Below, one piece after another: positions 1,626 to 11,300 of a stretch of DNA of 13,618 nucleotides. The position numbers and the translations under genes were made by a program. The DNA lies in the IMG/VR virus record IMGVR_UViG_3300028532_000077; one strand, written 5' to 3'. The stretch comes from a virus (Duplodnaviria; Heunggongvirae; Uroviricota; Caudoviricetes). The notes beneath the pieces are model-generated. The model was not told where the DNA came from. It saw only the letters and a program-made list of their open reading frames with translations, and did no database searches. Position 1 is the first letter of the stretch. Each line of letters starts with the position of its first letter.

Positions 1626-2282
1626 TTATTTCACTTCTCCGTCATACGTCGGAAGGGTGTCTTTAGTGGTGCTGGCTGTTCCTGCATTGGTTGGCACTCG
1701 GCTTTTTACCTGTCCGCCTGTGCTCTTAGGTGATGCGGTCTTTATAGCAATAGCGTTAGTAGTTGCATAACTCACTAATCTTATCTGTTCGAACTGCAAA
1801 TCAAACTGTAAAGCTGATTCTGTTTTATATTCGTAGTCAATGCCTGTCAGAATCATATTATCAAACGTCTTATGCTCTGTGCTTACAATAATAGGCTGTC
1901 TGGCATTCATTATTTCATCAAGATAAGCAATAGCCTGTGAACACCTGTTACCGTTCACCCCTGCACTTGATAGCATATCACCACGTAATGCTAATGGTGT
2001 TTCTGTAATAATGCCTGAAAGCATAAGTTTATTATTCTTGATCCTGACATTATCAGATACATCATTACCATCCTGCACAGGATACGATGTAACATCGGCA
2101 GAACGTGAAACCTTAGTTGCCGGAACAGCGTCAAAAGTAATAGCTTTATAACTGGCTATCGTTGATGCATTTTCGTTATTCAGGTTGCTACATATAATGG
2201 CAAATCCGTTATCAGATTTAACCTTGCTGTTAGATGTATTAATGTTAGATGTGCTGTTGATCTGACTTTCTTTGATAGCCAT
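1626..2282 (-). CDS. Hypothetical protein (218 aa), last gene of the virion-like operon; possible minor structural protein
   Basis: Long ORF with AAGGA Shine-Dalgarno about 10 nt upstream of ATG; lies 73 nt downstream of the 633-aa gene on the same strand; Ser/Thr/Asn-rich sequence with no recognisable catalytic motif. Confidence 0.7.
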   Translation of the reverse strand: MAIKESQINSTSNINTSNSKVKSDNGFAIICSNLNNENASTIASYKAITFDAVPATKVSRSADVTSYPVQDGNDVSDNVRIKNNKLMLSGIITETPLALRGDMLSSAGVNGNRCSQAIAYLDEIMNARQPIIVSTEHKTFDNMILTGIDYEYKTESALQFDLQFEQIRLVSYATTNAIAIKTASPKSTGGQVKSRVPTNAGTASTTKDTLPTYDGEVK

Positions 2283-4640: not shown

Positions 4641-5672
4641 TTACGCAGCAGATCCGAAGATGATAGCTTGCGGAATGTTGTTTACTGGCAGATAAGATGT
4701 CTCAGTAACCACAGATGGGAATTGGAATTCATCCTTGATTAGATATTGGTGATGCAACACGGCATCTTGACCTAACTCAGCATGACGCACACCAACGCCG
4801 CTATGAAGCTGGTAACACTGTGCCGCTTTATCCATTACCGGAACAATTGCGAAACCGTTCTCTCCGATGTGAGCAACAATCTCAGGAAACATTGACACAT
4901 CAATAACAGTGATCCCACCAATCTGGAAAGAGTCATAGGCTGGGTTAGAATCAACCATACGGGTAAACAGGGCCGTAGCACTCGCATCACCTGCATATTT
5001 CACCATGTCACTGATCAGCGGGTTAGATGACAAACCATCAGCAGCAGCGCCAGCAGCAAAGATAATTACACCAGTTCGCTTTGCAGCAAGACCAGACCCC
5101 AGCTTTTCACTCTGTAAGCGCACCGCTTTACGAATAGCAAGGAACGGGTTAACAGTAGTCGATGCAAAGTCGATAGCGGGTACCGTGGTTTTAGCCTGAC
5201 CGTCGAGGAAGTCGAGATCACCTTGTCCGGCATATTCAGATTCAACTTTCAGTCCCAGCAGCGCGGTAATCAGATCCACTTCAACACGGTTTGCGTGTGA
5301 ACGGTAATGAGCCTCAGAGAAATCATTAACCGCTACCAGCATAGCATCAGAACGGTTTGGATATTGGCGGCTGTATTGTTCCAGGTCACGAGAAGTAACA
5401 GCGTTAATACTGCCGACGTGTTTCATCTGGAAAAGTTTGTTTGACCATTCCTGACGTTTAGAAGCGTTCCAGTCGCTTTGAGCGTAAGGCGAGGTTTCCC
5501 CGGCTACCTGCACAAACTGCTCAATCAGGTCGGTAAGAAGAATGCTGTTTTCTGTATGATATTGCACATCGAACAGATCGAGATTAGTAATCAGGGTATT
5601 AAGTGCATTCTCATAAGCAAATGGAGTTACTACCGCAGTATTAACGCCAAAATATGTTGATAAATCATTCAT
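4641..5672 (-). CDS. Putative major capsid-like protein (343 aa)
   Basis: Size and position match the major capsid gene of lambda-like head modules (about 340 aa, immediately after an about 120-aa gene); AAGGAAAATAAT RBS; mixed alpha/beta composition with no nucleotide-binding or catalytic motif. Assignment is from context only. Confidence 0.6.
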   Translation of the reverse strand: MNDLSTYFGVNTAVVTPFAYENALNTLITNLDLFDVQYHTENSILLTDLIEQFVQVAGETSPYAQSDWNASKRQEWSNKLFQMKHVGSINAVTSRDLEQYSRQYPNRSDAMLVAVNDFSEAHYRSHANRVEVDLITALLGLKVESEYAGQGDLDFLDGQAKTTVPAIDFASTTVNPFLAIRKAVRLQSEKLGSGLAAKRTGVIIFAAGAAADGLSSNPLISDMVKYAGDASATALFTRMVDSNPAYDSFQIGGITVIDVSMFPEIVAHIGENGFAIVPVMDKAAQCYQLHSGVGVRHAELGQDAVLHHQYLIKDEFQFPSVVTETSYLPVNNIPQAIIFGSAA

Positions 5673-6272: not shown

Positions 6273-7266
6273 AAATAACGTTCCTGTTAGTGCCAGACAA
6301 ATAAAAAGCCCCAATGCCGTAAGAGGTTAATTCTGACCAGCAAAGGGGCTTTAACGTGCGGGCAATTACATAATTGATAAGTTAAACTATAAGAGGATTA
6401 AACATATCAGCAAATACACTTTTTAAATATACTTGATGATATGCTTAAAGAGTGAATATCAGACCTTAGAAAGGAAGGCTCTTAGGAGTTTGCCACTGGA
6501 ATCACTAAGATCTGATATTCTGGGTGCGGTGGCTAACCGCTGCCTGTTTTTGCTGTGGATGCAACAAAGTAAGGCTTTAAGGAATCACTATTCCAATTCT
6601 CATCTACTCACAGATCAAATTTTAATAGGATTAACTACACCAACAATAATCTACCGTTTCAGAAAAAGCGTTTTTACAACCAAAGATTATAGATTTGCAG
6701 TCTATAAAACCCGTTTTGCTATCAATATTTCCAAAGGTTATTGCACAATTCTTAGCTAAACTCTCTACTTGCGGCTAACGCTACGCAGATGATAGTTTTT
6801 TGACAACAACTTAATAGATTATTCTGTTACTAACTTCTGTCATTAAATAAGAGTTTAATGATGTTAGTAAATAGTTATAAAATATAACTATCAGTGTAAG
6901 GCTCTTTAATGTTTTCGGACAAAATAAGGAGCTTTAGGATAAGCATAGATGAAAAATAAGAGCGGGAAGGGCAAGGAGATAACACCTACCCGCTTTTATC
7001 AAAATTAAGCACAATGCCTAACAACATTCATCAACACAACGTAGAAACAATCAACAATCAAAGAGGGAGTTATGATTATTCTAAAACTTCTTGAGAGATG
7101 GAAGGTAATATTTGTTAGAGGTTAATGCCACTCAACCCTTGAGGCTATCACCTTCCATATGCAGGGATTTATGACAGTAGAAGGATTAACACCAGTCAAA
7201 ACCTTTTTATCTACCCCTAATATCATTATATAATGAAATCGCTATAAATGCAAATGATTTTCATTG

Positions 7267-7575
7267 TCATTTAGAGAAAATAGCACTTTTTGCTAAATCA
7301 TCTACTAATTGCTGAATCTCTTCACTTGCAGCCTTTAACGTGCTGGCGGTGTCTGTGATGGTTTGAGTACACAGCCTGACATCGTCCTTAGATAGCTCTA
7401 AATCGCTCACCAGAGAGATGAAATCGTCAAGGCTTACATTCACCTTCATTAAGCTACTAACGCATTGAGAGAGCGTGTAATCGCATAAATCTGAATAGGC
7501 TTGATTGATACGTGTCTGTAGGGCGATCATCCGATCCGAAAGAGTGTCCATAACTTCCAGAATGTTGTCTGTCAT
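7267..7575 (-). CDS. Hypothetical small acidic helical protein (102 aa)
   Basis: ATG overlaps the stop of the upstream ORF (ATGA coupling at 7572-7575); AGGAG upstream; no motif recognised. Confidence 0.65.
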   Translation of the reverse strand: MTDNILEVMDTLSDRMIALQTRINQAYSDLCDYTLSQCVSSLMKVNVSLDDFISLVSDLELSKDDVRLCTQTITDTASTLKAASEEIQQLVDDLAKSAIFSK

Positions 7576-8378: not shown

Positions 8379-9047
8379 TTAGAATGGTATTGAATCGTAT
8401 ATTTCACTTTTTTCTCTTAGAGATATTATCAGATCGTGAAAAGCCTGTTTCTCAAGATAGATATTCTTTGAATCTAATGCTCGTTTTACAAAATCTTCTG
8501 TTTCTTCGTGCGGTGGTTTCTTCTTATCAAGGGAAAGAAGCCAAGTAAAAATTTCGGGCCGCTCAGGGAACTCTGATTCCTGTGTTTCTTCTTCAATGAT
8601 GATTTCTGAAACATTCAATATTTCATTAGATTCGTCTTCTTTCTCAGAAGGATCAGGTAGTGATGACTCTCCAGGGGGAGTAATATGTGCATCTGTGAAT
8701 GGTAATGCTTTATAGAGTGATGTTTGCCCGTCCCGAGCCTCTACAGAAAGAACTCCCATATCAACAAACATATTTATAATATTGCGAACCTGGCGATCAC
8801 TAACCATTCCAATATTAGATAATGTTTTTTGAGTGGCGTAACATTCTTGCCCTTGTTCATTGAATCCAGCTATATAGCTATAGATTTCAACGGCTGGCAG
8901 TGTAGCGGTGTATTCATTACCTGACGGTGAGAACCACTTTTTAAACATCTTCAACCACTGCTCAACGACTACATATTTTTGTTTACCATCTTTCTGATTT
9001 AGACATTTGGCTTTCGCTTCGGCAATTGTTTTGATATTTTTGATCAT
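8379..9047 (-). CDS. Winged-HTH DNA-binding protein (222 aa), candidate replication initiator or regulator
   Basis: Strong AGGAGG RBS before ATG 9047; segment YATQKTLSNIGMVSDRQVRNIINMFVDMGVLSVEARDGQTSLY has the pattern of a winged helix-turn-helix; acidic C-terminal tail (EDESNEILNVSEIIIEEETQESE). Confidence 0.75.
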   Translation of the reverse strand: MIKNIKTIAEAKAKCLNQKDGKQKYVVVEQWLKMFKKWFSPSGNEYTATLPAVEIYSYIAGFNEQGQECYATQKTLSNIGMVSDRQVRNIINMFVDMGVLSVEARDGQTSLYKALPFTDAHITPPGESSLPDPSEKEDESNEILNVSEIIIEEETQESEFPERPEIFTWLLSLDKKKPPHEETEDFVKRALDSKNIYLEKQAFHDLIISLREKSEIYDSIPF

Positions 9048-9171
9048 TTAGTTCCTCCTTTGTAAGGACTGTAATTAGTAATTCATTAACAAGTTTTGGA
9101 ATTGATTTCCCTTCTGCCTTTGCACGATTTAACAACGCGTTATAAGTTGCAGAATCAAAATTAATATTCAT
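8983..9171 (-). CDS. Ribbon-helix-helix (CopG/Arc-like) DNA-binding protein (62 aa)
   Basis: MNINFDSATYNALLNRAKAEGKSIPKLVNELLITVL fits the beta-strand then two-helix RHH pattern; GGAGAAGGAG RBS; 3' end overlaps the start of the wHTH gene by 65 nt in another frame. Confidence 0.65.
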   Translation of the reverse strand: MNINFDSATYNALLNRAKAEGKSIPKLVNELLITVLTKEELNDQKYQNNCRSESQMSKSERW

Positions 9172-9371: not shown

Positions 9372-9494
9372 TAATTAACCTCCTATTCTATTTGGTTAAA
9401 AGAAAAAGACACCTTGCAAGCCTCTTGGGCTTCAAAGTGCGGTGCATTGGTTTAATTATTTAGAGGATAGGAATGTTTTCCTGCCCCTAATATT

Positions 9495-9523
9495 ACTTTA
9501 CCATAACTAAAGGCTTTTGTCAA
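9495..9523 (-). promoter_or_regulatory. Candidate sigma70 promoter for the leftward regulatory operon
   Basis: On the minus strand: TTGACA (9523..9518), 17-bp spacer, TAAAGT (9500..9495); about 120 nt upstream of the GTG at 9371. Confidence 0.4.
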
Positions 9524-9787
9524 CCCCCACCCATAAAATATTGATCATTTTTCAGTATGTTATGATTTTGCTTAGCAATTCGTGCTCTTCTGTGTGATGC
9601 TATTCTTCCTTATTCTCTAAAACGCGTTCTAACGAGGTTTTGATAAAAACAATACATTCCCTTATGTAATGACAGTTTAGCTCGCCTACGGCTTGATTTA
9701 AGCGGTAGAAACTTATTTAACCTTCAACTACTAAAACCATTCTTTTTTGTTTGTTGTTGGTTGTTGTCTGTGTCTATGTGCTAACAT

Positions 9788-10060
9788 CGCTAACGCGTAG
9801 CACACAAGGTTATTGCACTCGTCAGAGTATTGCACAATAGATTTTCTCTTAAATAGATTGATGATCGTTAGATTGGCGTAAGCCTCATCAATGGAACTAT
9901 TGAAGCGCACAGCGCATAGACACTAACAACCATTCGCTTACGCTCAGGTTATTGCACAAGTAAATTTCAATCGTTAGATGGTAGTTAGTTAATTATCGTT
10001 CTGCGCACAGCGCAAGACTATTTAGCCTTACGCAAGCCGTAGGCTATTTGCACATAGTAG
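9788..10060. repeat. Modular imperfect tandem duplication (about 100-bp period) with recurring short motifs
   Basis: TCGTTAGAT at 9865 and 9971; GCGCACAGCGCA at 9905 and 10003; GGTTATTGCAC at 9808 and 9947 with variants at 9827 and 10043; GCTAACGC at 9788. Confidence 0.6.
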
Positions 10061-10200
10061 ATTACATATTCGTTGTGAGCGGCATTAGCGAACATAGATC
10101 TACTAACTAACATCAACAAACAAAAACTATGTGTTATGACAAGCAGTCTAACGACTAACACTCTAACTTGTGCAAGGTTCTGGCGAATGCCAATAGATTA

Positions 10201-10235
10201 AGGGATAGTCGTTAGACTCCCTAACGGGTATCCCT
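10201..10235. repeat. Nested perfect inverted repeat (stem-loop)
   Basis: AGGGATA gt CGTTAG actcc CTAACG gg TATCCCT: outer 7-bp and inner 6-bp perfect stems; followed by about 60 bp of AT-rich DNA (10236-10295). Confidence 0.6.
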
Positions 10236-10295
10236 ATAATTATTCTTATAAAGATAAAAAAGAATTATATTATATAGTTTAATTGTAGTATTGTC

Positions 10296-10394
10296 GGAAA
10301 TCATTTCCTAGGTGATAGGAACTCATTTCCTAGGTAGGTAGGAAACCACTTCCACGGTTATTTCCTAAATAGATCGGAACTCATTTCCCAGGTG
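10296..10394. repeat. Iteron-like array: four 19-bp direct repeats, each with internal dyad symmetry
   Basis: GGAAATCATTTCCTAGGTG (10296), GGAACTCATTTCCTAGGTA (10318), GGAAACCACTTCCACGGTT (10341), GGAACTCATTTCCCAGGTG (10376); spacing 22, 23 and 35 bp; each copy contains GGAA-N5-TTCC. Confidence 0.7.
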
Positions 10395-10860
10395 TTATTT
10401 ATACTTATCGGGTATCAGACTTGATAGGGGTAGCTCACAGTGACCTACCGTTACATCCAATCATCACATAACATCTGTGCAATGATCTTCTAAAAGTGTT
10501 TCTTGCTACCAAAATTAAACATCTAAAACAGGCTTAAATTCAATGTAATTGATGATTAATCCCTGTGTAATTCCTACGTAAAAATCCAATGAAAAGTAGC
10601 TTAAAAAGTGCAATGTTAGCTTTCTTCACTTTTGCGTCATCATCAGCAAAGCCTTATGTTATGCGGCATATAGCGCATCACTGCAAAATTGTTGCTCAAT
10701 AAACGTTCTATCATTTGTCGAACAAGTTCTTTCACGTGTTGAAAATTTATGTTTAAATTTGCTTTCAATCTTTAATGTGCAATCACTATCAACATAAAAA
10801 TAAAAAACCTTCTATTATATTTCATAGCATACAAAAGTCAATAGAAGCCCTCTCGTGCTC

Positions 10861-11244
10861 CTACGTAAAAAATCCACCACTTTTCCCCTTATACATCAAC
10901 TCAAGGCGTTCTATGTGTTCCTTAGTGCATATTACGATTATTATGTTAAATGGATTTTGGACTATATTTTGACCTGCACCCGCATAAACACTGGTTTCAT
11001 CGCTTACAGCCCTTGTGAGACGTGGTGCTGTTTCTAGCATCTGATCCGACATAAAACCGATCATTCTCGTGTTTAGTGAAAGTTTAGTGAGATACATTAC
11101 AGAAAGGCTTTCTGTGTAATGATTTAATAGGTAAAAACGATGTTGATTACGCAAGAAAATTCCTTGCTGATATTTGGGGATTCTGGATTTTCCAGATCGG
11201 GGGGCGGTGAAAATCGCGTTAAGCACTTCTCGCAATCTAGCCAT
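10861..11244 (-). CDS. Questionable ORF (127 aa)
   Basis: Open frame only; no purine-rich RBS before the ATG (CCCTTCCC context); translation has no recognisable features. Listed because nothing else occupies this interval. Confidence 0.2.
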   Translation of the reverse strand: MARLREVLNAIFTAPRSGKSRIPKYQQGIFLRNQHRFYLLNHYTESLSVMYLTKLSLNTRMIGFMSDQMLETAPRLTRAVSDETSVYAGAGQNIVQNPFNIIIVICTKEHIERLELMYKGKSGGFFT

Positions 11245-11260: not shown

Positions 11261-11300
11261 GTATTTAGATGTATTTATAGCTATTTATGGCTATTTATTT
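11261..11300. repeat. Four tandem 10-bp AT-rich repeats (helical phasing)
   Basis: GTATTTAGAT / GTATTTATAG / CTATTTATGG / CTATTTATTT in exact 10-bp register. Confidence 0.5.

What the first reader, a model, noticed from the sequence alone, without database searches (positions are those of the whole stretch)
10201..10394. Candidate replication origin: nested hairpin, AT-rich tract and four dyad-symmetric iterons
A perfectly nested inverted repeat (10201-10235) is followed by ~60 bp of AT-rich DNA and then four 19-bp direct repeats spaced at about two helical turns, each with a GGAA-N5-TTCC dyad. This matches the architecture of iteron origins (lambda ori, plasmid oriV) and of satellite origins. 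Alternatively it is an operator array for a dimeric repressor.
Basis: partly seen in the sequence, partly recalled or inferred. Interest (0 to 1): 0.6.

Follow-up and report, generated by a model that had tools for sequence, protein, structure and literature searches.

The report
Satellite replication origin with swappable iterons
This stretch is most likely the replication origin of a small E. coli phage satellite: four binding sites for the satellite's own initiator protein next to an easily melted AT-rich tract. Some large E. coli phages carry nuclease-like proteins holding near-identical copies of that initiator's DNA-binding domain, which suggests a phage–satellite arms race of the kind so far known only in cholera bacteria.

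Summary
The four GGAA-N5-TTCC dyad repeats (10294-10393) and the AT-rich tract (10234-10293) are real and far beyond chance. The hairpin is imperfect, not conserved and twice deleted in relatives, so it is not part of the device.

The window is an about 13-kb E. coli phage satellite integrated at tRNA-Thr. Across relatives, the repeat array is a cassette between conserved flanks. Five repeat families (R1-R5) pair one-to-one with five types (A-E) of the N-terminal winged-helix domain of the 222-aa protein at 8379-9047. The two neighbouring small proteins do not covary with the repeats. All four domain types scanned (A-D) match phage replication-initiator families. The predicted fold is closest to the N-terminal domain of RepA, the initiator of the Vibrio cholerae satellite PLE.

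Best reading (about 0.68): an iteron origin plus its cognate initiator, with no helicase of its own, as in PLE.

Stephanstirmvirinae phages (phi92-like) are the likely helpers. They encode chimeric proteins with two satellite-type winged-helix domains (83-99% identical) fused to a T5orf172-like endonuclease domain. This mirrors Odn, the origin-directed nuclease of the PLE helper phage ICP1.

Nothing here was tested experimentally. An operator array remains the main rival.

The parts
10294..10393 (+). R1 iteron array. Four direct repeats (10294-10313, 10316-10335, 10339-10358, 10374-10393), each with a GGAA-N5-TTCC dyad, plus a truncated unit at about 10358-10373.
   Evidence: The array is 100% conserved in all loci with the same initiator. 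In elements with other initiator N-domains it is replaced wholesale by other repeat families.
10234..10293 (.). AT-rich tract, the proposed DNA-unwinding element, directly abutting the first iteron.
   Evidence: It is the least stable 60-mer in the window. It is conserved, with small indels, next to the cognate array in all five element types.
10201..10235 (.). Imperfect palindrome (hairpin). Polymorphic and probably not required.
   Evidence: Fold. A 42-bp block containing it is missing in L005 and L008, and a different 30-bp block is missing in L019. The inner stem is not conserved in L012, L013, L014 and L027.
8379..9047 (-). Gene for the 222-aa initiator-like protein. It has a type-A winged-helix DNA-binding domain (about aa 1-122, nt 8682-9047), a disordered acidic linker, and a conserved three-helix C-terminal domain (nt 8379-8564).
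9098..9110 (.). Solitary fifth R1 dyad (GGAATTGATTTCC), 51 bp upstream of the initiator start codon and inside the RHH-like ORF. Possibly an autoregulatory site.
   Evidence: It is present in every type-A element, including the 90%-identical L013 and L014. Types B, C and D have no equivalent cognate site.
10410..10458 (+). Single copies of non-cognate repeat families: R2 (10410-10432, cognate to type E), R4 (10431-10449, cognate to type B) and half an R5 (10449-10456, cognate to type C).
   Evidence: The same families form multi-copy arrays in L031, L019 and L027.
9495..9523 (-). Sigma-70-like promoter (TTGACA-17-TAAAGT with TG) for the operon encoding the 58-aa protein (p58), the RHH-like protein and the initiator.
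   Evidence: The -35 element is conserved in all 13 aligned elements of all types, and no type-specific site sits there.
11196..11241 (+). 46-bp copy of the boundary of the left direct terminal repeat of phi92-like phages. Candidate packaging signal; context for the origin, not part of it.
   Evidence: 91% identity; phi92 terminal repeat is 1-343; the match covers 318-363. It is conserved at 95-100% in satellites of all initiator types that keep this segment.

Best explanation
The AT-rich tract (10234-10293) plus the four R1 dyad iterons (10294-10393) form the vegetative replication origin of an about 13-kb E. coli phage satellite integrated at tRNA-Thr (thrW).

Proposed mechanism:
1. The 222-aa protein encoded at 8379-9047 is the initiator. 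Dimers of its N-terminal winged-helix domain (type A) bind the GGAA-N5-TTCC dyads.
2. The dyads are spaced about two helical turns apart, so the dimers sit on one face of the DNA.
3. The resulting nucleoprotein complex melts the adjacent AT tract.
4. The conserved C-terminal domain recruits a helicase or replisome that the satellite does not encode. The source would be either the host or, as in V. cholerae PLE, the infecting helper phage. The helper here is probably a phi92-like Stephanstirmvirinae phage.

Shown here:
- The repeats and the AT tract exist.
- Repeat family and N-domain type covary one-to-one.
- The protein is initiator-like in sequence and fold.

Inferred:
- Binding of the protein to the repeats.
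- Melting of the AT tract.
- Recruitment of a replisome.
- That the outcome is replication.
For: 1. Covariation. Five N-domain types pair one-to-one with five repeat families:
- A with R1, GGAA-N5-TTCC.
- B with R4, GCTCACAGTGACC, 1 to 8 copies at 22-bp period.
- C with R5, GTAACG-N4-GTTAC.
- D with R3, AACAGAATTCTGT.
- E with R2, TATCA-N4-TGATAGGGG.

2. The N-domain coding segment and the array are two non-adjacent segments about 1.2 kb apart. Both are replaced together, while the DNA between and around them stays 84-98% identical. That points to functional coupling rather than simple linkage.

3. The neighbouring RHH-like and 58-aa proteins do not covary with the repeats.

4. The four N-domain types scanned (A-D) independently match PHROG replication-initiator, O-like and DnaD-like families. 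No repressor family appears.

6. The AT tract abutting the array is the least stable duplex in the window. It is kept next to every array type.

7. The conserved operon promoter carries no type-specific sites.

8. A candidate packaging signal lies elsewhere, at 11196-11241.

9. A distant relative exists as a 13.2-kb circular plasmid record. It has no integrase, it has a wHTH protein matching initiator families, and it has a 23-bp-period repeat array.

10. Phages of the likely helper group encode proteins that combine satellite-type N-domains (83-99% identical) with a T5orf172-like endonuclease domain. In the PLE/ICP1 system, the analogous protein Odn cuts the satellite origin at its iterons (PMC8263062).
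Against: - There is no experimental evidence of replication or of binding.
- The element encodes no helicase, primase or loader.
- No DnaA box or IHF site lies near the array.
- The protein does not reach the Pfam thresholds for RepA_N or Phage_rep_O. HTH_36 scores 23.3 bits, below its cut-off of 25.
- Dyad sites at a 22-23-bp period also describe lambda-type operator arrays.
- Weak promoter-like matches touch the array.
- The strict R1 core also occurs five times in phage muut, just downstream of early promoters. So the type-A domain may be, or may derive from, a transcription-regulatory domain.
- L015 and L016 carry R1 arrays together with non-A initiator genes, although both of those genes are broken.
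- The covariation rests on roughly a dozen distinct elements. Many of the sampled loci are near-identical to each other.
Confidence: 0.68

Rival explanations
1. Operator array. The wHTH protein is a transcription regulator, and the four dyads are operators controlling a promoter in or beside the AT tract, for example an unannotated transcript through the 1.5-kb non-coding region.
For: - Dyad symmetry and a 22-23-bp period resemble lambda OR/OL.
- Promoter-like matches lie at 10297-10269 (minus strand) and 10213-10240 (plus strand).
- The R1 core occurs at a promoter-proximal position in phage muut.
- The extra dyad at 9098 looks like an autoregulatory operator.
Against: - The -35 elements of both candidate promoters fall in variable or deletable DNA.
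- The conserved operon promoter at 9495-9523 has no type-specific site.
- Arrays reach 8 identical tandem units.
- The wHTH gene sits third in the operon, not divergent from it.
- Every PHROG match with an assigned function, for all four N-domain types scanned, falls in the DNA, RNA and nucleotide metabolism category, mostly replication-initiator, O-like or DnaD-like families. None is a repressor.
- The best structural matches are RepA_N-type initiators.
- No gene is annotated in the region across hundreds of genomes.
Confidence: 0.15
2. Phage-interaction site. The array exists mainly to be bound by a phage-encoded winged-helix protein. It would act as a sensor, a decoy or a sponge for the phage nuclease or regulator that carries the same domain. 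Alternatively, the satellite protein mainly acts on the R1-like sites in the phage genome.
For: - Phage proteins carry domains 83-90% identical to type A.
- R1-core palindromes occur downstream of five early promoters in muut, against 0.0 expected.
Against: - It does not explain why the satellite's own N-domain covaries with its own array in all five types.
- It does not explain why the array always abuts a conserved AT tract.
- The R2 (with its GGGG flank), R4 and R5 cores are absent from muut, and R3 is at chance level.
- Only 6 phage records in the collection carry the type-A domain.
Confidence: 0.07
3. Packaging (pac/cos-like) or partition site, recognised by a small-terminase-like or centromere-binding winged-helix protein.
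For: - Small terminases and plasmid centromere binders also use winged-helix domains on repeated sites.
- A plasmid centromere-binding protein (4RS8) appears among the weak Foldseek matches.
Against: - A much better packaging candidate, a 46-bp copy of the phi92 terminal-repeat boundary, lies at 11196-11241 and is conserved across initiator types.
- An integrated element needs no partition system.
- There are no PHROG matches to terminase or partition families.
Confidence: 0.04

Closest known systems
V. cholerae PLE replication module: RepA, a RepA_N-family initiator, plus iterons in a non-coding region (Barth et al. 2019/2020, PMC7145576; Barth et al. 2021, PMC8263062)
   Same: - A satellite of a large lytic myovirus.
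- The initiator has an N-terminal winged-helix DNA-binding domain and no helicase or primase.
- The origin lies in a long non-coding region that holds several repeat families, away from the initiator gene.
- The iterons are semi-palindromic.
- Initiator variants covary with their origins, and the modules are exchanged between elements.
- The helper phage carries a chimeric protein that fuses an initiator-like DNA-binding domain to a T5orf172-type nuclease domain.
- PLE RepA's N-terminal domain (4RO3) is the closest solved structure to the model of this protein.
   Different: - No detectable sequence homology to PLE RepA.
- No Pfam RepA_N match.
- Different host (E. coli) and helper lineage (Stephanstirmvirinae).
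- Tyrosine integrase rather than a serine recombinase.
- Iterons of about 20 bp at a 22-bp period, against about 30 bp in PLE.
- At least five specificity types.
- The phage chimeras carry two satellite-type domains rather than one.
- Nothing here has been tested experimentally.
Bacteriophage lambda ori and O protein
   Same: - Four dyad-symmetric iterons of about 19 bp next to an AT-rich tract.
- The initiator has an N-terminal origin-binding domain of exchangeable specificity and a C-terminal recruitment domain.
- Weak PHROG matches to O-like families.
   Different: - Lambda ori lies inside the O gene. Here the array is 1.25 kb upstream of the initiator gene, in non-coding DNA.
- There is no P-like helicase loader.
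- The window protein has no Pfam Phage_rep_O match.
Iteron plasmids (pPS10, F, P1, R6K) and SaPI/PICI origins
   Same: - Direct repeats in helical phase beside an AT-rich tract.
- Replicon-specific pairing of initiator and iterons.
- A possible autoregulatory site upstream of the initiator gene (9098-9110).
   Different: - No DnaA boxes.
- The initiator is not a Rep_3-type or Pri-Rep helicase protein.
- SaPI/PICI origins lie just downstream of a primase-helicase gene, which this element lacks.
ICP1 Odn (Gp88), the origin-directed nuclease. This comparison is for the phage proteins found in passing.
   Same: - The phage protein fuses a satellite-initiator-like DNA-binding domain to a T5orf172/GIY-YIG-like domain.
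   Different: - Identity to the satellite domain is far higher: 83-99%, against 42% for Odn.
- Two tandem DNA-binding domains of different specificity are present.
- Nuclease activity and target are untested.
- The host phage itself carries R1-core palindromes.

Membership tests
Iteron-type theta origin (general class) | Three or more direct repeats of about 17-22 bp, spaced in helical phase | tested here: met
   Four units with 22-, 23- and 35-bp spacing. Relatives have 22-24-bp periods, or multiples of 11 bp.
Iteron-type theta origin (general class) | Adjacent AT-rich unwinding region | tested here: met
   10234-10293 is the least stable 60-mer of the window. It is conserved beside all five array types.
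Iteron-type theta origin (general class) | Cognate initiator encoded by the same element, specific for its own iterons | tested here: met
   One-to-one covariation of N-domain type and repeat family, with neighbouring proteins excluded. Physical binding was not testable.
Iteron-type theta origin (general class) | Supports initiator-dependent replication | not testable with these tools
   Needs qPCR, marker-frequency analysis or a plasmid replication assay.
Iteron-type theta origin (general class) | Host-factor sites (DnaA boxes, IHF). Common but not universal. | tested here: not met
   No DnaA box (up to 1 mismatch allowed) and no IHF consensus within 10000-10600.
RepA_N initiator family (Pfam PF06970; PLE RepA, pSK41/pTZ2162 RepA) | Match to the RepA_N profile | tested here: not met
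   Pfam scan at E <= 0.01 gives only HTH_36, at 23.3 bits against a cut-off of 25.
RepA_N initiator family (Pfam PF06970; PLE RepA, pSK41/pTZ2162 RepA) | N-terminal domain with the DnaD-NTD/RepA_N winged-helix fold | tested here: inconclusive
RepA_N initiator family (Pfam PF06970; PLE RepA, pSK41/pTZ2162 RepA) | Semi-palindromic iterons | tested here: met
   All five repeat families have dyad cores.
Lambda O / ori-lambda | Origin located inside the initiator gene | tested here: not met
   The array lies 1.25 kb upstream of the gene, in non-coding DNA.
Lambda O / ori-lambda | Phage_rep_O domain | tested here: not met
   No Pfam match for the window protein. Only weak PHROG O-like matches.
Repressor/operator array (lambda OR/OL type) | Sites overlap the promoter of the regulated operon | tested here: not met
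   The conserved operon promoter at 9495-9523 has no type-specific site. The promoter-like matches touching the array are not conserved.
Repressor/operator array (lambda OR/OL type) | Regulator of repressor type, usually transcribed divergently from its target | tested here: not met
   The gene is third in the same-strand operon. PHROG matches are initiator families.
Odn-type origin-directed nuclease (phage proteins muut gp154, Mt1B1_P17 QNJ49226, inny, BI-EHEC) | DNA-binding domain homologous to a satellite initiator domain | tested here: met
   Type A 83-90%, type D 104 of 105 residues, type C 88%, type E 97-100%.
Odn-type origin-directed nuclease (phage proteins muut gp154, Mt1B1_P17 QNJ49226, inny, BI-EHEC) | T5orf172/GIY-YIG-type nuclease domain | tested here: inconclusive
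   phrog_681 endonuclease at 2e-18. Pfam MUG113 at 22.5 bits for muut gp154 (cut-off 22.3) but 21.2 for the Mt1B1_P17 protein. T5orf172 at 15 bits is below its cut-off of 20.
Odn-type origin-directed nuclease (phage proteins muut gp154, Mt1B1_P17 QNJ49226, inny, BI-EHEC) | Cuts the satellite origin in an iteron-dependent way | not testable with these tools
   Needs nuclease assays.

The most novel reading that the evidence does not exclude
E. coli hosts a counterpart of the V. cholerae PLE/ICP1 arms race.
- A widespread family of about 13-kb satellites of phi92-like (Stephanstirmvirinae) lytic phages replicates from this iteron origin. DNA from its non-coding region matches 745 of 5426 complete E. 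coli genomes.
- The phages have repeatedly captured the satellites' initiator DNA-binding domains, two at a time, onto a T5orf172-type nuclease in order to cut the origin.
- That attack drives the satellites to swap initiator-domain and iteron cassettes among at least five specificities.
- On this reading, the R1 array in this window is the target of the nucleases of phages muut, inny, Mt1B1_P17 and BI-EHEC.
- Type B is the commonest satellite type and has no close phage copy, so it would be the current escape type.
Probability: 0.45. Interest if true: 0.85.

Novelty: new member of a known kind. Interest (0 to 1): 0.72.

Why it matters
If correct, this gives a defined origin and initiator pair for a satellite family that appears undescribed in the literature searched and is common in E. 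coli. The satellite depends on large lytic phages, not on temperate ones.

It would also show that the PLE/ICP1 logic has evolved independently outside Vibrio, in the most tractable host. That logic has three parts: an initiator-only replicon, exchangeable origin specificity, and phage nucleases that mimic the initiator.

The five natural specificity cassettes, and the phage chimeras with near-identical domains, amount to a ready-made experiment on how DNA-binding specificity and counter-defence co-evolve.

It bears on phage therapy too. phi92-like and phAPEC8-like phages are therapy candidates, and resident satellites could block them or be spread by them.

Tried and rejected
- Rfam scan of the window. 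Only the tRNA passed; nothing in the non-coding region.
- BLAST of the 1.5-kb non-coding region against phages. No match.
- Scan of one genome per species for relatives of the initiator. Only 2 loci, so cross-species sampling by that route failed.
- Profile search of solved structures by sequence. Only weak generic HTH matches.
- DnaA-box and IHF searches. Nothing near the array.
- GGAATGTTTTCC at 9470-9481, near the operon promoter, as a type-A operator. Rejected: it is present in type B and C elements and absent from some type A elements.
- RHH-like and 58-aa proteins as the iteron binders. Rejected: the same alleles occur with different repeat families.
- The hairpin as an origin component. 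Rejected.
- Iterons as a packaging site. Judged unlikely once the phi92 terminal-repeat copy was found at 11196-11241.
- IMG/VR scan for the array. It returned only prophage-type contigs that appear to derive from isolate genomes, so it gives no evidence of packaging into virions.
- tblastn of the capsid-like protein against phages. No match.
- Eight literature searches. None found a description of this satellite family or of Odn-like proteins in E. coli phages. The library holds open-access papers only.

Full report
**1. Observation**

The region was read directly. Four direct repeats of about 20 bp start at 10294, 10316, 10339 and 10374. Each has a GGAA-N5-TTCC dyad. The window holds five such dyads against 0.16 expected, and no shuffle of 200 reaches five.

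- Spacing is 22, 23 and 35 bp. The long gap holds a truncated unit.
- The 60 bp before the array (10234-10293, 13% G+C) is the least stable duplex of the whole 13.6-kb window.
- The inverted repeat 10201-10235 folds well as single-stranded DNA (z = -5.3). It is not perfect: it has one G-G mismatch and one G-T pair.
- The fifth dyad lies at 9098-9110.

**2. What the window is**

Exact-protein look-ups and E. coli genome searches place the sequence in E. coli, between paoD and tRNA-Thr (thrW)/proA. The element is about 13 kb.

- It has a tyrosine integrase at one end.
- It has one long minus-strand gene set: a 58-aa protein (p58), an RHH-like protein, a 222-aa winged-helix (wHTH) protein, several small ORFs, a capsid-like protein, a tape-measure protein and a Dit-like baseplate protein.
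- It has no helicase, primase, terminase or portal gene. It therefore has the make-up of a phage satellite.
- The 1.5 kb between 9372 and 10860 has no annotated gene in RefSeq records. DNA similar to it occurs in 745 of 5426 complete E. coli genomes.
- Rfam finds nothing there.

**3. Comparative anatomy**

In elements with the identical 222-aa protein, the array is 100% conserved. A 42-bp block containing the hairpin is cleanly missing in two of them. A different 30-bp deletion removes the hairpin in L019. In L012, L013, L014 and L027 the inner stem is broken without compensating changes. The hairpin is therefore not a required part.

In more distant elements the left flank, the AT tract and the right flank (…CCGTTACATCC…) are kept. 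The array between them is replaced by other repeat families with dyad cores and a period of about 22 bp.

The 222-aa protein is modular. Its N-terminal winged-helix domain comes in unrelated types. Types A to D share the acidic linker and the C-terminal domain. Type E, found later, has a different C-terminus.

| N-domain type | Repeat family | Core sequence | Copies seen |
|---|---|---|---|
| A | R1 | GGAA-N5-TTCC | 2-4 |
| B | R4 | GCTCACAGTGACC | 1-8 |
| C | R5 | GTAACG-N4-GTTAC | 4-5 |
| D | R3 | AACAGAATTCTGT | 4-6 |
| E | R2 | TATCA-N4-TGATAGGGG | 5 |

- The only mixed cases, L015 and L016, have an IS-truncated and a frameshifted initiator gene respectively.
- The RHH-like and 58-aa proteins do not follow the repeats. 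One RHH allele occurs with R3, R4 and R5. The 58-aa protein is 95-98% identical across elements with R1, R3, R4 and R5.
- The N-domain coding segment and the array are about 1.2 kb apart. Both lose all nucleotide similarity between types, while the DNA between and around them stays 84-98% identical. This is the pattern expected for a DNA-binding domain and its binding sites.

**4. What kind of protein**

- The four N-domain types scanned (A-D) independently match PHROG families annotated as replication initiation protein, O-like initiator or DnaD-like loader. No repressor family appears.
- Pfam gives only HTH_36, just under its threshold.
- An AlphaFold model has a confident N-domain, a disordered linker and a small helical C-domain.
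- Foldseek against the PDB ranks 4RO3 first and second. It also lists the plasmid RepA_N initiators 4PQL, 4PT7 and 5KBJ, and DnaD.
- 4RO3 is the N-terminal domain of RepA, the replication initiator of the V. cholerae satellite PLE (PMC7145576).
- The margins over generic winged-helix regulators are small. The fold evidence is supportive, not decisive.

**5. Other features bearing on function**

- No DnaA box or IHF site is near the array.
- The operon promoter (9495-9523) is conserved in all types and carries no type-specific site.
- The promoter-like matches touching the array have their -35 elements in variable or deletable DNA.
- The solitary R1 dyad at 9098-9110 is present in every type-A element and only there. 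It could be an autoregulatory site.

**6. Link to phages**

- A 46-bp stretch at 11196-11241 is 91% identical to phi92-like phages. It matches exactly across the inner boundary of the left direct terminal repeat: the phi92 repeat is 1-343 and the match covers 318-363.
- That stretch is conserved in satellites of all initiator types.
- The Dit-like protein is 60-63% identical to proteins of the same phage group.
- tblastn of the initiator against phages found its type-A domain, at 83-90% identity, inside proteins of about 330 aa in Stephanstirmvirinae phages.
- These phage proteins consist of two tandem winged-helix domains plus a C-terminal T5orf172/MUG113-like endonuclease domain (phrog_681, 2e-18).

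| Phage | First domain | Second domain |
|---|---|---|
| Mt1B1_P17 | Type D (104 of 105 residues identical) | Type A (83%) |
| BI-EHEC | Not compared separately; the whole protein is 90.5% identical to the Mt1B1_P17 protein | Type A (90%) |
| inny | Type C (88%) | Type A (89%) |
| muut | Type E (97-100% to E. coli satellite proteins) | Type A (89%) |

- Type B is the commonest type in E. coli. It has only 29-36% similarity to any phage copy.
- This is the architecture of ICP1 Odn. Odn mimics PLE RepA's DNA-binding domain and cuts the PLE origin at its iterons. PLE escapes by changing its iterons or by exchanging its replication module (PMC8263062).

**7. A complication**

The muut genome was fetched whole and scanned. 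The strict R1 core occurs five times, against 0.0 expected.

- Each occurrence is the centre of a longer palindrome, GGCGGGAAACCA(T/C)TTCCCGCC.
- Each palindrome sits between a sigma-70-like promoter and the start of a small early gene.
- They look like copies of one repeated cassette, so the chance of at least one independent match is about 0.035.
- The type-A domain may therefore also have, or derive from, a regulatory role in the phage.
- If active, the phage nuclease must spare these single sites. This is unexplained.

**8. Mechanism and rivals**

The best-supported reading is an iteron origin.

- Initiator dimers sit on four in-phase dyads.
- They melt the adjacent AT tract.
- The conserved C-domain recruits a replisome that the satellite lacks.
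- The array as the cognate binding site of the 222-aa protein: about 0.9.
- The array as the replication origin: about 0.68.

Rivals:

- Operator array, 0.15.
- A site that mainly serves interaction with phage winged-helix proteins, 0.07.
- Packaging or partition site, 0.04.

A distant relative recorded as a 13.2-kb circular plasmid has no integrase. It has an initiator-like wHTH protein and a 23-bp-period array, which fits autonomous replication by this kind of module.

**9. Novelty**

The design is known from PLE, lambda and iteron plasmids.

What is new:

- The element family and its host.
- The probable helper lineage.
- Five interchangeable specificity cassettes.
- Phage chimeras that carry two satellite-derived domains.

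Eight full-text searches found no description of any of this. The library covers open-access papers only.

**10. Limits**

- Everything rests on sequence comparison.
- Many sampled loci are close relatives.
- Binding, replication, helper identity and nuclease activity are all untested.

Noticed in passing
window 11196-11241: A 46-bp stretch is 91% identical to phi92-like phages. It spans the inner boundary of their left direct terminal repeat (phi92 positions 318-363; the repeat is 1-343). It is conserved at 95-100% in satellites of all initiator types that keep this segment. It is a likely packaging-signal mimic and points to Stephanstirmvirinae as helper phages.
   Followed up: partly
L029:2135-3133 (phage muut gp154), L030:2168-3154 (phage Mt1B1_P17 QNJ49226.1); also phages inny and BI-EHEC: These phage proteins have two tandem winged-helix domains, each 83-100% identical to a different satellite initiator N-domain type (E+A, D+A, C+A). 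The domains are fused to a T5orf172/MUG113-like endonuclease domain. This mirrors ICP1 Odn, which targets the PLE origin.
   Followed up: partly
phage muut MN850573.1 positions 66500, 67359, 69368, 71677, 72256 (L041): The strict R1 core GGAA[AC][CT]CA[CT]TTCC occurs five times, against 0.0 expected. Each copy is the centre of the palindrome GGCGGGAAACCA(T/C)TTCCCGCC, between a sigma-70-like promoter and the start of a small early gene. Its meaning for the type-A domain is unknown.
   Followed up: partly
window 10410-10458: Directly after the R1 array come single copies of R2 (cognate to type E), R4 (type B) and half an R5 (type C). Every element examined carries such solitary non-cognate repeats in the same order. 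They may be relics of cassette exchange, or they may have a function, for example as side-by-side targets for two-domain phage proteins.
   Followed up: no
window 9830, 9952, 10048 (+ strand) versus 10169, 10476, 10776 (- strand); TGTGYAAT also at 10564 and 11113: The motif TTGCACA / TGTGYAAT is enriched (11 against 3.0 expected, and 10 against 1.5 expected). Its orientation flips across the origin region. Related ATTACACA repeats recur in the non-coding regions of relatives.
   Followed up: no
L039 = CP148565.1 (whole record): This is a 13,238-bp circular E. coli 'plasmid' record with capsid, tape-measure, baseplate and tail-completion genes and no integrase. It has a 298-aa wHTH protein matching initiator families and a 23-bp-period repeat array at 6686-6758 inside a 2.3-kb non-coding region. 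It may be an extrachromosomal relative of this satellite type.
   Followed up: partly
window 1626-2282 and 4641-5672: The Dit-like protein is 60-63% identical to proteins of Stephanstirmvirinae phages. The capsid-like protein has no tblastn match in 50,697 phage records, although some alleles in relatives match Pfam Phage_cap_E.
   Followed up: partly
window 9684-10165: There are several long-range inverted and direct repeats. Examples: GCGCACAGCGCA at 9905 and 10003; GCCTACGGCTTG at 9684 paired with CAAGCCGTAGGC at 10033; and 22-nt arms at 9744 and 10105. They are not consistently nested and their role is unknown.
   Followed up: no
L013, L014 (tRNA-Gly near yecR/actS), L015 (tRNA-Leu), L004, L005 and others: The same satellite backbone sits at different tRNA sites with different integrase alleles. 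The segment to the right of the origin is variable: a resolvase gene, a 183-aa secreted-looking protein, or IS elements.
   Followed up: no
window 6330-7267 and 11272-11298: A second stretch of about 0.9 kb has no convincing ORF, between the early and the structural genes. There is also a TATTTATAGC tandem repeat (2.7 copies) just after the terminal-repeat mimic.
   Followed up: no
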